From: a virus | Lineage: Duplodnaviria; Heunggongvirae; Uroviricota; Caudoviricetes | IMG/VR virus record: IMGVR_UViG_2579778842_000011 | Coordinates: 1-44,866 of that record | DNA: 44,866 bases | Direction: 5' to 3' (one strand) | Shown: piece after piece, positions 36,903 through 38,441 of the stretch | Layout: every line of letters starts with the position of its first letter | Position numbering within the stretch: position 1 is the stretch's first letter | Notes under the pieces: model-generated | Told to the model about the DNA's origin: nothing | Database searches by the model: none | The model's input: the letters and a program-made list of their open reading frames with translations, nothing else | Made by a program: the position numbers and the translations under genes

Positions 36903-37181
36903 ATGACTGAAATTATATATGGCGGTATCGGTGTTATCGCCTTAATTTGTGGTGGATTATGGAGACTTCACCGAAATCAATTAGCCACAGAAAATAGATT
37001 GTCGAAATTAGAGTCCAATGATGCATTGTTTAATCAGAAGTTTGAGACGATGCAAAGTAACCATGACCAGATCGCCGAGAGAGTTTATCGCATGGAACAA
37101 ACACTACACGGTATAGAGAAGAAAGTGGTTGCGATGGACGCCAAATTTGACCAAGTTCTCGACATACTCAAACAAAAATAA
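36903..37181 (+). CDS. Membrane protein with N-terminal transmembrane helix and coiled coil (spanin- or holin-like)
   Basis: ATG 36903 after GGGGG; 92 aa; IIYGGIGVIALICGGLW hydrophobic helix then helical region. Confidence 0.4.
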   Translation: MTEIIYGGIGVIALICGGLWRLHRNQLATENRLSKLESNDALFNQKFETMQSNHDQIAERVYRMEQTLHGIEKKVVAMDAKFDQVLDILKQK

Positions 37182-37199
37182 TAATAAAGGGGTGAATAT

Positions 37200-37370
37200 A
37201 TGAAGAATAAACTTAAGAAATATTTTGGTTATCTCTTGATTGTCGCCCTCACTTATAACGTAGCTATTAGACCTCTGCTAACGTCCTTTGGGCTTGAACT
37301 CCCGGCTATGACCGTGGATGAACAATTGCTAAGGACACTGGCGGGGGTCTTTTCGTTATTAGGGGGCTAA
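37200..37370 (+). CDS. Small membrane protein (56 aa; holin candidate), absent from the ORF track
   Basis: ATG 37200 after AAAGGGGTGA; MKNKLKKYFGYLLIVALTYNVAI... one hydrophobic helix; stop TAA 37368-37370. Confidence 0.35.
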   Translation: MKNKLKKYFGYLLIVALTYNVAIRPLLTSFGLELPAMTVDEQLLRTLAGVFSLLGG

Positions 37371-37371
37371 C

Positions 37372-38055
37372 ATGGCAACCAGTACCAATAAACGAAACGC
37401 TCTAAGGACTAAGAAAGCGTTACGCCAATGGACTGATAAAGCAACCGATACATTCGAAAAGGCGATAGGGGAAGGGGCGATCTTTGCTTCCAGAGCACTC
37501 CAGAAGAAGATTAACAAGAATGTTGATAGACCTACTCGCTGGACTCAGCAAGCTGTAGGTAATACCAACTACAAGAACCGATCAGGGACGAGACACCAAA
37601 TCTTCATCAAGGGCGCAAGGGATAAGGACAAGAAGATCGGCAGTCAGGATGACTATCTGAAACACTATTTCGATGGTGGCAAAATCAATAAGCTAGTGCC
37701 AATCGCTAACGGTAAGGTCTTAGACGCCCACGGGAACATTAAGGCCATCAAAGGCGGTAAGATGATGCGTAACATCGAAAATGGCAACTTCATCAAGGTA
37801 GAGAACAAGGAAGGGACTTTTATCATGAAGAAGTACAAGCCTAAGAAATCCCGAACCAAACGCGCTAAGAATGGATCGGCGGTGGCAAAACGTCGCTTAG
37901 AGAAACGCATACAGAAACAGAGCAAGCGAATTGTTGCCGTTAAGTCGGATAAAATTTCTACTCGTTATTCGACGTTAGGATCGTGGGAAAGCAACGAGGA
38001 AATGATGCTTAAGAACATTAATAAGCACATTAAATCGCGCATGAGATACGTTTAA
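37372..38055 (+). CDS. Hypothetical lysine-rich basic protein
   Basis: 227 aa; ATG overlaps previous stop (TAACATG). Confidence 0.45.
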   Translation: MATSTNKRNALRTKKALRQWTDKATDTFEKAIGEGAIFASRALQKKINKNVDRPTRWTQQAVGNTNYKNRSGTRHQIFIKGARDKDKKIGSQDDYLKHYFDGGKINKLVPIANGKVLDAHGNIKAIKGGKMMRNIENGNFIKVENKEGTFIMKKYKPKKSRTKRAKNGSAVAKRRLEKRIQKQSKRIVAVKSDKISTRYSTLGSWESNEEMMLKNINKHIKSRMRYV

Positions 38056-38093
38056 TCCATAAATACCCTCATAGAATCTTATGGGGGTATAAC

Positions 38094-38441
38094 ATGGCTA
38101 AAAATATTTTCACTGAATTTCCTACTTATCCGGTCGATCAGCTTTCCGGTATTTTTATTAATGGCATTAGCCCAGAATCAATGACTTATGATTTTGCGGC
38201 GAAGAGAGTTAAACATAAACAATATAAAGAATGTATCCGCGATCATGAAAAAGGGACCGTGTTTTGTGTCGCTACATTGGCTAAACGTCCTAAATATCGT
38301 TTTCGTGTAGGACAAGAAGTTGATGTGGTTAATCCTTATAGCTTTAACTGTCTGGGCGATGCACGCGCGGTGTGTGTAGGCACTGCTCCTTATTATATCA
38401 AGGGTATGCGCTTTATTGGTTATATCTTCGAAATGATCTAA
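38094..38441 (+). CDS. Hypothetical protein
   Basis: 115 aa ORF in the operon preceding the endolysin. Confidence 0.45.
   Translation: MAKNIFTEFPTYPVDQLSGIFINGISPESMTYDFAAKRVKHKQYKECIRDHEKGTVFCVATLAKRPKYRFRVGQEVDVVNPYSFNCLGDARAVCVGTAPYYIKGMRFIGYIFEMI

What the first reader, a model, noticed from the sequence alone, without database searches (positions are those of the whole stretch)
36903..38441. Four genes of unknown function between the central fiber and the endolysin, including an untracked 56-aa membrane protein
The lysis region is atypical: a 92-aa protein with a transmembrane helix plus coiled coil, a 56-aa single-helix protein, a 227-aa lysine-rich protein and a 115-aa protein precede the M15 endolysin. 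No lipoprotein o-spanin was found by eye. Either the holin/spanin functions are performed by these small membrane proteins in an unusual order, or the basic and 115-aa proteins are cargo unrelated to lysis.
Basis: inference. Interest (0 to 1): 0.35.

Follow-up and report, generated by a model that had tools for sequence, protein, structure and literature searches.

The report
Holin genes interleaved with tail-completion genes
The four small genes after the tail-fibre gene of this E. coli prophage are most likely two membrane proteins that open the inner membrane for the cell-wall enzyme, plus a displaced tail-completion protein and its small partner: an unusual arrangement of ordinary phage functions, not a new system.

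Summary
Four real genes lie at 36903-38441 between the J-like fibre and an M15 endolysin. All have strong ribosome-binding sites and are under purifying selection. The block occurs in 55 of 5426 complete E. coli genomes and in distant relatives.

The 227-aa basic protein is a remote homologue of lambda gpZ / HK97 gp10, the tail completion protein. It is neither a lysis protein nor cargo. Its lysine-rich stretches are lineage-specific insertions. The 115-aa protein is a small beta-barrel that always follows it; its role is unknown but is probably in virion assembly.

The 56-aa protein is a truncated relative of the "Holin of 3TMs" (gene-transfer-agent type) family. Longer relatives of that family abut GH24 or M15 endolysins in other phages, so it is the probable holin.

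The 92-aa protein is predicted to be N-out/C-in, a membrane-tethered cytoplasmic coiled coil. This is the architecture of Mu releasin gp25, LambdaSo Lcc6 and mycobacteriophage LysF1b. It is probably a holin-level accessory protein.

The prophage is essentially complete within the window and encodes no lipoprotein, so no spanin. How the outer membrane is breached stays open.

Verdict: a new arrangement of known kinds, of modest interest.

The parts
36817..36852 (+). Intrinsic-terminator-like hairpin (16-bp stem plus T-run) between the J-like gene and the five-gene block
   Evidence: scan.: -24.2 kcal/mol, z -6.6. A hairpin at the same place is seen in L002, L015, L005 and L010. No sigma-70-like promoter was found between it and gpA.
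36903..37181 (+). gpA, 92 aa: N-terminal transmembrane helix with an acidic N-tip and a basic flank after the helix (predicted N-out/C-in), followed by a ~70-aa coiled-coil-type cytoplasmic domain. Probable holin-level accessory protein (releasin / Lcc6 / LysF1b / XhlA-like architecture).
   Evidence: conserved W at the helix end and an ExR(I/L)(S/T)x(L/I)E motif in 7 relatives; weak hits to XhlA, and to Rz-like and holin PHROGs; hhalign against Mu gp25 gives E 9e-4, probability 23%; dN/dS 0.13.
37200..37370 (+). gpB, 56 aa: basic N-terminus, one clear TM helix and a short hydrophobic C-tail. Truncated relative of the 'Holin of 3TMs' (GTA-type) family; probable holin.
   Evidence: motif YN..I.P.L..FG..P; phrog_2024 in 6/7 members and a 'holin' PHROG in 2/7; hhalign 83.7%, E 8e-6 for the short core; 98.1%, E 9e-14 for the 97-aa L017 homologue. 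dN/dS 0.21. Its stop codon is 1 nt from the gpC start, and the gpC Shine-Dalgarno lies inside gpB.
37372..38055 (+). gpC, 227 aa, pI 10.7: distant member of the lambda gpZ / HK97 gp10 tail completion protein (TCP) superfamily, carrying lineage-specific lysine-rich insertions.
38063..38090 (+). 12-bp hairpin whose 3' arm contains the Shine-Dalgarno (GGGGG, 38083-38087) of gpD. Possible translational control.
   Evidence: -17.8 kcal/mol, z -4.0. The same hairpin occurs in L002 (z -5.5).
38094..38441 (+). gpD, 115 aa: small all-beta barrel protein, always immediately downstream of gpC. Role unknown, probably virion assembly.
38451..38804 (+). Soluble Peptidase_M15_3 endolysin, 117 aa, with no signal or SAR segment
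   Evidence: PF08291, E 1e-27; phrog_894 endolysin; no hydrophobic segment.
38809..38831 (.). Bidirectional terminator-like hairpin that closes the block; the UvsW-like helicase gene converges on it from the other strand

Best explanation
The block 36903-38804 is the last transcription unit of the late operon of a complete, roughly 36.5-kb E. coli prophage. It mixes two functions.

**Lysis genes**
- gpB (56 aa) is a minimal derivative of the GTA-type 'Holin of 3TMs' family. It is the most likely hole-former that lets the soluble M15 endolysin (38451-38804) reach the cell wall.
- gpA (92 aa) is a membrane-tethered cytoplasmic coiled-coil protein. It most likely acts at the holin level, as partner, timer or antiholin. 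Mu gp25 releasin, LambdaSo Lcc6 and mycobacteriophage LysF1b have the same architecture and act at that level.

**Virion-assembly genes, lying between holin and endolysin**
- gpC (227 aa) is a distant lambda-gpZ / HK97-gp10-type tail completion protein. Its gene has moved from the usual neck position to behind the fibre gene.
- gpD (115 aa) is a beta-barrel partner of unknown role.

**Regulation and the missing step**
- A strong terminator after J would keep expression of the whole block low. That suits lysis proteins, and it suits a protein needed in one or a few copies per virion.
- No spanin or disruptin is encoded, so the outer-membrane step is unexplained.

**Shown:** gene reality, homologies, synteny, absence of lipoproteins.
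**Inferred:** topology, holin activity, the role of gpA, virion location of gpC and gpD, and the effect of the terminator.
For: **gpC is a TCP**
- The AlphaFold2 model (pLDDT 64) has two N-terminal helices, a beta-hairpin, an inserted beta region and a C-terminal helix.
- A profile of 26 family members finds 206 relatives among 1.8 billion representatives.
- Of 89 relatives scanned, 12 hit PF06763 Minor_tail_Z. P0086 and P0174 pass the gathering score; P0086 does so over the full length.
- hhalign of the family against an alignment anchored on lambda gpZ gives 98.5%, E 4e-15.
- gpC is the only ORF in the window that matches.
- Lambda gpZ has a comparable RRRRRKK stretch.

**gpB is a holin relative**
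- A conserved motif is shared by 7 relatives.
- The L017 homologue (97 aa) aligns to 123-133-aa proteins of IMG/VR contigs at 98.1%, E 9e-14. The short core aligns at 83.7%, E 8e-6.
- Those longer proteins directly abut GH24 or M15 endolysins, with no gpC or gpD nearby.
- They are annotated 'holin' or 'Holin of 3TMs, for gene-transfer release' in most of the 33 matching phage records.

**Elimination**
- The endolysin has no export signal.
- The only non-embedded membrane ORFs of the prophage are gpA, gpB and a 94-aa ORF at 9292-9576.
- The 94-aa ORF is absent from the 30.5-kb relative. There, gpA-like and gpB-like are the only late-strand membrane ORFs.

**gpA**
- A conserved charge asymmetry and a motif are shared with Mu gp25.
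- Mu gp25 is a 99-aa N-out/C-in protein with a 73-aa cytoplasmic domain (PMC9239132).
- Lcc6 and LysF1b are similar.

**Module conservation**
- gpA, gpB, gpC and gpD stay together while the endolysin varies. It is M15, GH24, on the other strand, or absent at this place.
Against: - No function was tested.
- The window's own gpB gives no direct hit to any Pfam holin family. It gives only E 0.005 to a PHROG of unknown function. Its link to holins is transitive and rests on about 35 aligned columns.
- 'Holin' for that family is mostly an annotation by position.
- gpA's similarities are largely coiled-coil composition. DUF2730 and XhlA scores stay below the Pfam cut-offs.
- gpC itself gives no direct Pfam hit, and its model is of medium confidence.
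- The stable linkage of gpA and gpB to gpC and gpD, while endolysins are swapped, could mean the membrane proteins serve the tail module rather than lysis.
- A prophage without any outer-membrane disruptor may lyse poorly or be defective.
Confidence: 0.62

Rival explanations
1. gpA and gpB are not lysis proteins. They are superinfection-exclusion or immunity membrane proteins (morons) placed behind the fibre gene, like lambda lom, T1 cor or HK97 gp15. The real holin would be the 94-aa three-helix ORF at 9292-9576.
For: - They are small membrane proteins directly after a strong terminator that follows J. This is a typical moron position (own knowledge).
- They co-vary with the tail module rather than with the endolysin type.
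- The 94-aa ORF has three hydrophobic segments and is conserved in the E. coli prophages.
Against: - No promoter-like site lies between the terminator and gpA.
- gpB is translationally coupled to the late gene gpC.
- Both are conserved in a non-integrating 30.5-kb relative that lacks the 94-aa ORF.
- gpB is related to a family that abuts endolysins.
- The 94-aa ORF has no family hit and lies outside the late block.
Confidence: 0.12
2. gpA is an i-spanin (Rz-like). Its coiled coil would reach across the periplasm, working with an unrecognised outer-membrane partner.
For: Six of 7 family members give weak hits to 'Rz-like spanin' PHROGs (best E 2.6e-4). The TM plus coiled-coil architecture resembles Rz.
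Against: - In all 7 relatives the N-tip is acidic and the flank after the helix is basic. This predicts a cytoplasmic coiled coil.
- No lipobox ORF exists in any frame of the block or of the prophage, nor in the 30.5-kb relative.
- The PHROG hits are of the same strength as hits to unrelated coiled-coil families.
Confidence: 0.05
3. gpC and gpD are non-structural. They would form a basic nucleic-acid-binding regulator or cargo pair; for example, gpD would be a PilZ-like cyclic-di-GMP sensor.
For: - gpC has pI 10.7.
- Their position is not the canonical neck position.
Against: - gpC links to gpZ / HK97 gp10 by fold and by intermediate sequences.
- The basic stretches are insertions missing in most relatives.
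- The RxxxR of gpD (R65-R69) is not conserved in relatives.
- Tail-tube, hub and neck barrels score almost as well as PilZ.
Confidence: 0.08

Closest known systems
Lambda gpZ / HK97 gp10 / SPP1 gp16.1 / 80alpha gp51 tail completion proteins (Pfam PF06763 Minor_tail_Z, HK97-gp10 family)
   Same: - Same size class: the gpC core is about 180 aa and gpZ is 192 aa.
- Same fold elements: long N-terminal helices, a beta-hairpin, an inserted beta region and a C-terminal helix.
- A basic patch is present.
- The link is made through intermediate sequences.
   Different: - No direct Pfam hit.
- The gene lies after the J-like fibre gene, between holin and endolysin. Normally it lies between the head-completion and tail-terminator genes (PMC11784142).
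- Two lysine-rich insertions are specific to the E. coli/Salmonella branch.
'Holin of 3TMs, for gene-transfer release' type holins (annotated in marine and freshwater phages; the name refers to the RcGTA release locus rcc00555-rcc00556, PMC5026251)
   Same: The TM core motif (Y/V)N..I.P.L..FG..P...LG is shared. Members lie beside endolysins.
   Different: - gpB is 56 aa against about 125 aa.
- It lacks the whole N-terminal amphipathic part with the QIEVNKEEA motif. The 97-aa L017 homologue keeps that motif.
- It is separated from the endolysin by two genes.
- No Pfam test of the family was possible for gpB beyond (no hit).
Mu gp25 releasin (DUF2730), Shewanella LambdaSo Lcc6, mycobacteriophage LysF1b
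   Same: - All are about 65-100 aa with a single N-terminal TM, predicted N-out/C-in, and a cytoplasmic tail.
- All are encoded in late lysis regions and are required at the holin/endolysin-release level.
- gpA shares with gp25 the segment GG.W..basic..ENR(L/M)(S/T)x(L/M)E.
   Different: - The DUF2730 score is below the cut-off.
- This phage is not Mu-like.
- gpA lies upstream of the endolysin, not downstream.
- The endolysin is soluble, not SAR.
Bacillus PBSX XhlA-XhlB-XlyA (membrane-anchored coiled-coil protein + holin + endolysin after the tail-fibre genes)
   Same: The gene order is the same: fibre, anchored coiled-coil protein, small holin, endolysin. Four of 7 gpA relatives give weak XhlA hits.
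   Different: - XhlA is anchored by a C-terminal helix (own knowledge).
- The best score is 25.5 bits against a cut-off of 34.7.
- The host is Gram-positive.
Phage P2 late region, where the tail completion genes R and S directly follow the lysis genes Y, K, lysA-C (own knowledge, not checked here)
   Same: Tail-completion genes and lysis genes are neighbours within one late region.
   Different: In P2 the two sets are adjacent, not interleaved. P2 also has spanins (lysB/lysC).
[quoted passage not shown]
   Same: No spanin is recognisable.
   Different: No stand-alone small cationic peptide gene was found either.

Membership tests
Tail completion protein (lambda gpZ, PF06763 / HK97 gp10 family) | Direct significant match of the protein itself to the family model | tested here: not met
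   gpC has no Pfam hit at E <= 0.1 or E <= 5. hhalign of the close family against a single lambda gpZ sequence found nothing.
Tail completion protein (lambda gpZ, PF06763 / HK97 gp10 family) | Homology through intermediate sequences or profile-profile comparison | tested here: met
   There are 206 relatives. Twelve of 89 hit PF06763. P0086 (24.3 bits, full length) and P0174 (24.1 bits) pass the 23.9-bit cut-off. hhalign against the bridge alignment gives 98.5%, E 4e-15. The wide profile against lambda gpZ alone gives E 5e-4, probability 32%.
Tail completion protein (lambda gpZ, PF06763 / HK97 gp10 family) | Fold: long N-terminal helix or helices, beta-hairpin, C-terminal helix (80alpha gp51) | tested here: met
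Tail completion protein (lambda gpZ, PF06763 / HK97 gp10 family) | Gene lies between the head-completion and tail-terminator/tube genes | tested here: not met
   The gene lies after J at 37372-38055. The neck region (21781-23320) holds no match.
Tail completion protein (lambda gpZ, PF06763 / HK97 gp10 family) | Present in the tail, and required for infectivity or head-tail joining | not testable with these tools
   Needs virion mass spectrometry and deletion mutants.
Holin ('Holin of 3TMs' type) | Sequence relationship to the family | tested here: inconclusive
   The short gpB core against 12 family-like proteins gives 83.7%, E 8e-6 over 35 columns. The L017 homologue gives 98.1%, E 9e-14. A PHROG annotated 'holin' is hit by 2 of 7 members. 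The window gpB alone has no Pfam hit.
Holin ('Holin of 3TMs' type) | Small membrane protein encoded in the late region beside the endolysin | tested here: met
   It is in the same terminator-bounded block as the endolysin, two genes upstream. Longer relatives directly abut GH24 or M15 endolysins.
Holin ('Holin of 3TMs' type) | Forms lethal membrane lesions that release endolysin at a programmed time | not testable with these tools
   Needs inducible expression, energy-poison triggering and lambda S complementation.
Releasin (Mu gp25, DUF2730 PF10805) | Match to PF10805 at the gathering score | tested here: not met
   The window gpA does not list DUF2730 at E <= 1. The best relative scores 15.1 bits against a cut-off of 24.9. 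Mu gp25 itself scores 50.4 bits.
Releasin (Mu gp25, DUF2730 PF10805) | N-terminal TM, N-out/C-in, cytoplasmic domain of about 70 aa | tested here: met
   By the positive-inside rule: an acidic N-tip and a basic post-TM flank in all 7 relatives. This is a prediction only.
Releasin (Mu gp25, DUF2730 PF10805) | [quoted passage not shown] | tested here: not met
   The endolysin has no hydrophobic N-terminus. gpA is upstream of it. The phage uses a serine integrase.
Two-component spanin (Rz/Rz1) | o-spanin: small lipoprotein ORF with a lipobox, adjacent to or nested in the i-spanin gene | tested here: not met
   The regex scan covered all nested starts in six frames. Nothing was found in 36800-38900. 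Elsewhere there were only two implausible ORFs.
Two-component spanin (Rz/Rz1) | i-spanin: N-in/C-out with a periplasmic coiled coil | tested here: not met
   The charge distribution predicts the opposite orientation.
PilZ domain (for gpD) | Conserved RxxxR and (D/N)xSxxG cyclic-di-GMP-binding motifs | tested here: not met
Tail terminator (lambda gpU, for gpD) | Sequence or fold relationship to gpU-type terminators; gene follows the TCP gene | tested here: inconclusive

The most novel reading that the evidence does not exclude
The block would encode an undescribed lysis route for a Gram-negative host. A 56-aa minimal holin and a releasin/Lcc6-like membrane-tethered coiled-coil protein would together release a soluble M15 endolysin. 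The phage has neither spanin nor disruptin. The outer membrane would then be breached by an unknown activity, possibly one of the conserved partners gpA-gpD. The tight four-gene linkage would reflect coupling of virion completion to lysis timing.
Probability: 0.12. Interest if true: 0.6.

Novelty: new variant of a known kind. Interest (0 to 1): 0.33.

Why it matters
- **Annotation.** It assigns probable functions to four 'hypothetical' genes carried by about 1% of complete E. coli genomes and by related Salmonella, Klebsiella and Serratia prophages.
- **Gene order as a guide.** A tail completion gene can sit outside the neck module. This matters for annotation by gene order, and for the current debate on where these proteins act (PMC11784142, PMC11661146).
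- **Experimental material.** It provides a compact, genetically tractable E. coli example of two things. One is a minimal holin of the GTA type. The other is an N-out/C-in accessory lysis protein, a class only recently shown to matter in Mu, LambdaSo and mycobacteriophages.
- **Open question.** It adds a clear spanin-less case in E. coli.

Tried and rejected
- **tblastn against 50,697 phage records.** gpC gave no match. gpA gave one chance-level hit. gpD gave two weak hits; one of these, DCP80, turned out to be a real syntenic relative.
- **Vibrio phage D478 and Enterobacter phage Arya.** Only the endolysin or the head genes are related. Neither helps for this block.
- **Direct family searches.** gpB, gpC and gpD gave no Pfam hit. 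gpC gave only a weak 'minor tail protein' PHROG hit (E 9e-4).
- **Profile comparisons with single sequences.** The close gpC family against lambda gpZ found nothing. gpD against lambda gpU found nothing.
- **PDB sequence searches.** Profiles of gpC and gpD, and the 140-aa neck ORF, gave nothing.
- **BFVD fold search for gpD.** Only E >= 2e-3 hits, to tube, hub or unnamed proteins.
- **Idea: the lysine-rich protein disrupts the outer membrane, like phiKT gp28.** Rejected, because the basic stretches are insertions missing in most relatives.
- **Idea: gpA and gpB are halves of a split 3TM holin.** Rejected, because L017 has both a gpA-like protein and a long gpB-like protein.
- **Disruptin-like small cationic genes.** None stand alone.
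- **Pfam test of PF11351-type membership.** The link to that family name rests on GenBank annotations.
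Full report
**Setting**

The window holds an essentially complete E. coli prophage.
- Host genes ghrA and the 5' part of ycdX end at about 8299.
- A large serine recombinase lies at 42299-43993 on the minus strand.
- The window ends at the start of an 89-aa ORF. In relative L015 that ORF is followed directly by the 3' part of ycdX.
- So nothing of the prophage is hidden outside the window.

The late genes run on the plus strand in this order:
- large terminase, portal, protease-capsid fusion and neck genes;
- a 1172-aa fibre, the tail tube gene and a gp38-like adhesin;
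- chaperones and the tape measure gene;
- a GTA-like tip (distal tail protein, DUF2163, DUF6950 and a 1258-aa J-like protein).

**Observation**

- Each has a GGGGG-type Shine-Dalgarno.
- gpB's stop codon is 1 nt from gpC's start.
- Together with the M15 endolysin they form a five-gene block. It is bounded by a strong terminator-like hairpin after J (36817-36852, z -6.6) and by a bidirectional one after the endolysin.
- dN/dS against a relative 60-80% identical in protein is 0.10-0.21 for all four, like J (0.12) and the endolysin (0.09).
- The block is present in 55 of 5426 complete E. coli genomes. There PGAP calls all four 'hypothetical protein'.

**Relatives**

Homologues of the 227-aa and 115-aa proteins are few, and all are unnamed. 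Their contexts show one recurrent order: J, a TM-plus-coiled-coil protein, often a homing endonuclease, a 52-61-aa membrane protein, gpC, gpD. It is seen in:
- E. coli (L002, L015);
- phage record DCP80 (L005) and a 30.5-kb metagenomic twin (L010);
- Klebsiella (L006, L007);
- Serratia (L008);
- a more distant enterobacterial prophage (L017).

The endolysin is not constant.
- It is M15 in E. coli.
- It is T4-lysozyme type in DCP80, L010 and Serratia.
- It is on the opposite strand in L017.
- It is absent at this place in Klebsiella L006.

In L017 the gpB-like gene (97 aa) lies after gpC-gpD.

**The 227-aa protein (gpC)**

- An alignment of 26 homologues shows that the lysine-rich parts are two insertions, found only in the E. 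coli/Salmonella branch. The core is about 180 aa.
- The AlphaFold2 model (pLDDT 64, pTM 0.58) has two N-terminal helices, a beta-hairpin, a poorly defined beta region and a C-terminal helix.
- The published description of that protein, and of the extra beta domain in lambda gpZ, matches the model (PMC11661146).
- A profile search of 1.8 billion representative proteins finds 206 relatives, most of 190-210 aa.
- Of 89 scanned, 12 match Pfam Minor_tail_Z. Two pass the gathering score, one over its full length.
- hhalign of the close family against an alignment of these bridge sequences, anchored on lambda gpZ, gives 98.5% and E 4e-15.
  - Caveat: the bridge sequences were chosen by similarity to gpC. 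The link to gpZ therefore rests on their own Pfam matches.
- The wide profile against lambda gpZ alone gives E 5e-4 and probability 32%, in register at the N-terminus.
- gpZ also carries an RRRRRKK stretch.
- No other ORF of the window matches these profiles. The neck region has only an FII-like ORF, a connector-like ORF and an unassigned 140-aa ORF.

I conclude that gpC is this phage's tail completion protein, encoded in an unusual place. TCP genes normally lie between the head-completion and terminator genes (PMC11784142).

**The 115-aa protein (gpD)**

- The model is confident (pLDDT 88, pTM 0.82) and is a small beta-barrel.
- BFVD gives only weak tube or tail hits.
- The PilZ motifs are not conserved.
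- hhalign against lambda gpU is negative.

By position (directly after the TCP gene in every relative) and by fold class, a virion-assembly role is the best guess. It is only a guess. A 12-bp hairpin buries its Shine-Dalgarno and is conserved in L002.

**The 56-aa protein (gpB)**

- Seven relatives share the motif (Y/W)N..I.P.L..FG..P.
- Six hit the uncharacterised phrog_2024 (best E 1e-7). Two hit a PHROG annotated 'holin' (E 1e-5).
- A scan of IMG/VR with the 97-aa L017 homologue finds 301 relatives. They include 123-133-aa proteins from environmental viral contigs.
- Those longer proteins directly abut GH24 or M15 endolysins, often with overlapping stop and start codons, and have no gpC-like or gpD-like gene nearby.
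- In 33 phage records these proteins are annotated 'holin', 'holin family protein' or 'Holin of 3TMs, for gene-transfer release'.
- hhalign gives 98.1% (E 9e-14) for the L017 protein against this set. It gives 83.7% (E 8e-6) over the TM core for the short gpB family without L017.

gpB therefore looks like a truncated version of that holin type, lacking its N-terminal amphipathic half. The family name refers to the RcGTA release locus, which is needed for lysis (PMC5026251). I could not run Pfam on these proteins.

**The 92-aa protein (gpA)**

- All relatives have an acidic N-tip, one helix ending in a conserved W, a basic flank, and then a 70-130-aa coiled-coil-type region with an ExR(I/L)(S/T)x(L/I)E motif. 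This predicts N-out/C-in.
- That is the architecture and size of Mu releasin gp25: 99 aa, 4 periplasmic residues and a 73-aa cytoplasmic domain (PMC9239132).
- It is also the architecture of LambdaSo Lcc6 and of mycobacteriophage LysF1b. All three are needed for lysis at the holin or endolysin-release level.
- gp25 shares the segment around the W and the ENR(M)TEME motif. hhalign gives E 9e-4 and probability 23%.
- Pfam scores for DUF2730 (15.1 against a cut-off of 24.9) and XhlA (25.5 against 34.7) stay below their cut-offs, among many coiled-coil families.
- PHROG hits to 'Rz-like spanin', 'holin' and 'hemolysin' are equally weak.

So gpA works like these proteins on paper, but it is not shown to be a member of any of their families.

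**Elimination, and the missing outer-membrane step**

- The M15 endolysin has no hydrophobic N-terminus, so it needs a hole-forming holin.
- The only non-embedded membrane ORFs in the prophage are gpA, gpB and a 94-aa three-helix ORF beside the small-terminase-like gene (9292-9576).
- The 94-aa ORF is missing from the 30.5-kb DCP80-type genome. There, gpA-like and gpB-like are the only late-strand membrane ORFs, and the GH24 endolysin is again soluble.
- No lipobox ORF exists in the prophage or in that relative.
- No stand-alone cationic peptide gene exists either.
- About 15% of phages lack a recognisable spanin (bioRxiv 10.1101/515445). The absence is notable but not unique.

**Verdict**

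The region is a composite. A holin (gpB) and a holin-level accessory protein (gpA) are separated from their endolysin by a relocated tail completion gene (gpC) and its partner (gpD). All lie behind a terminator that probably keeps expression low.

My confidence by part:
- gpC is a tail completion protein: about 0.85.
- gpB and/or gpA provide the holin function: about 0.65-0.7.
- gpD acts in virion assembly: about 0.5.

This is a new arrangement, with new distant members of known kinds. It is of modest interest.

Noticed in passing
L005 (GenBank PQ671644.1, 1-32000): The record 'Escherichia phage DCP80' is 140,978 bp and is filed as Gaprivervirus. It begins with about 30.5 kb of a siphovirus genome syntenic with this prophage, then continues with T4-like genes (motA at 30840). 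It is probably a chimeric assembly. Its gpA-like (22472-22933) and gpB-like (23411-23584) ORFs are not annotated.
   Followed up: partly
window 38063-38090: A 12-bp hairpin between gpC and gpD buries the Shine-Dalgarno of gpD (z -4.0). The same hairpin occurs in L002 (z -5.5). It may act in translational control or coupling.
   Followed up: partly
L005 22959-23426; L006 7365-7847; L010 7367-7834; L017 7567-8001: Homing-endonuclease-type genes (Endonuclease VII, SegE-like GIY-YIG) are inserted between the gpA-like gene and the gpB/gpC-like genes in several relatives. They are absent in the window.
   Followed up: no
window 7874-8299 and 42299-44866; L004; L015: The prophage interrupts ycdX. The same prophage family sits next to a truncated hicB in strain L3Cip3, and in ycdX in L015. 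The large serine recombinase therefore uses more than one site, or its variants differ.
   Followed up: partly
window 8628-9576: The small-terminase-like gene (phrog_57, E 2e-15) lies 6.4 kb from the large terminase gene (15588-17492), at the other side of attP from the endolysin. It is followed by a 94-aa ORF with three hydrophobic segments and no family hit. That ORF is absent from the DCP80-type genome.
   Followed up: partly
window 38836-42225; L002 11643-11798; L015 9398-9661: A UvsW-type helicase has 42 nt identical to the uvsW gene of RB49-like phages. Two CapR/T5orf172-type nuclease genes lie between the endolysin and the integrase. Small UvsY or UvsW.1 fragments follow the endolysin in relatives. 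This suggests DNA acquired from T4-like phages.
   Followed up: no
window 22487-28130: The tail layout is unusual. A 277-aa protein has a tube-like N-terminal half. A 1172-aa fibre (Peptidase_S74 in relatives) lies between the neck and tube genes. A gp38-like adhesin gene (27594-28130) comes right after the tube gene. Strain L3Cip3 instead has three extra ~100-aa ORFs, and an IS3 element in the fibre gene.
   Followed up: no
L006 / L007 (Klebsiella): In the Klebsiella relative, gpD is followed directly by the integrase, with no endolysin. In contig L007 a lysozyme gene sits upstream of the tail chaperone genes, and the hub and distal-tail genes are inverted. This may be a rearrangement or a second element.
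   Followed up: no
window 1-6700: The higher-GC left flank (54-57%) reads, from the translations alone, like a CP4-44-type island. It shows an Ag43-like autotransporter C-terminus, a RadC/YeeS-like protein and a YeeU/CbeA-like antitoxin. It lies next to a tRNA-like stretch near 6550-6710. None of this was checked with tools.
   Followed up: no
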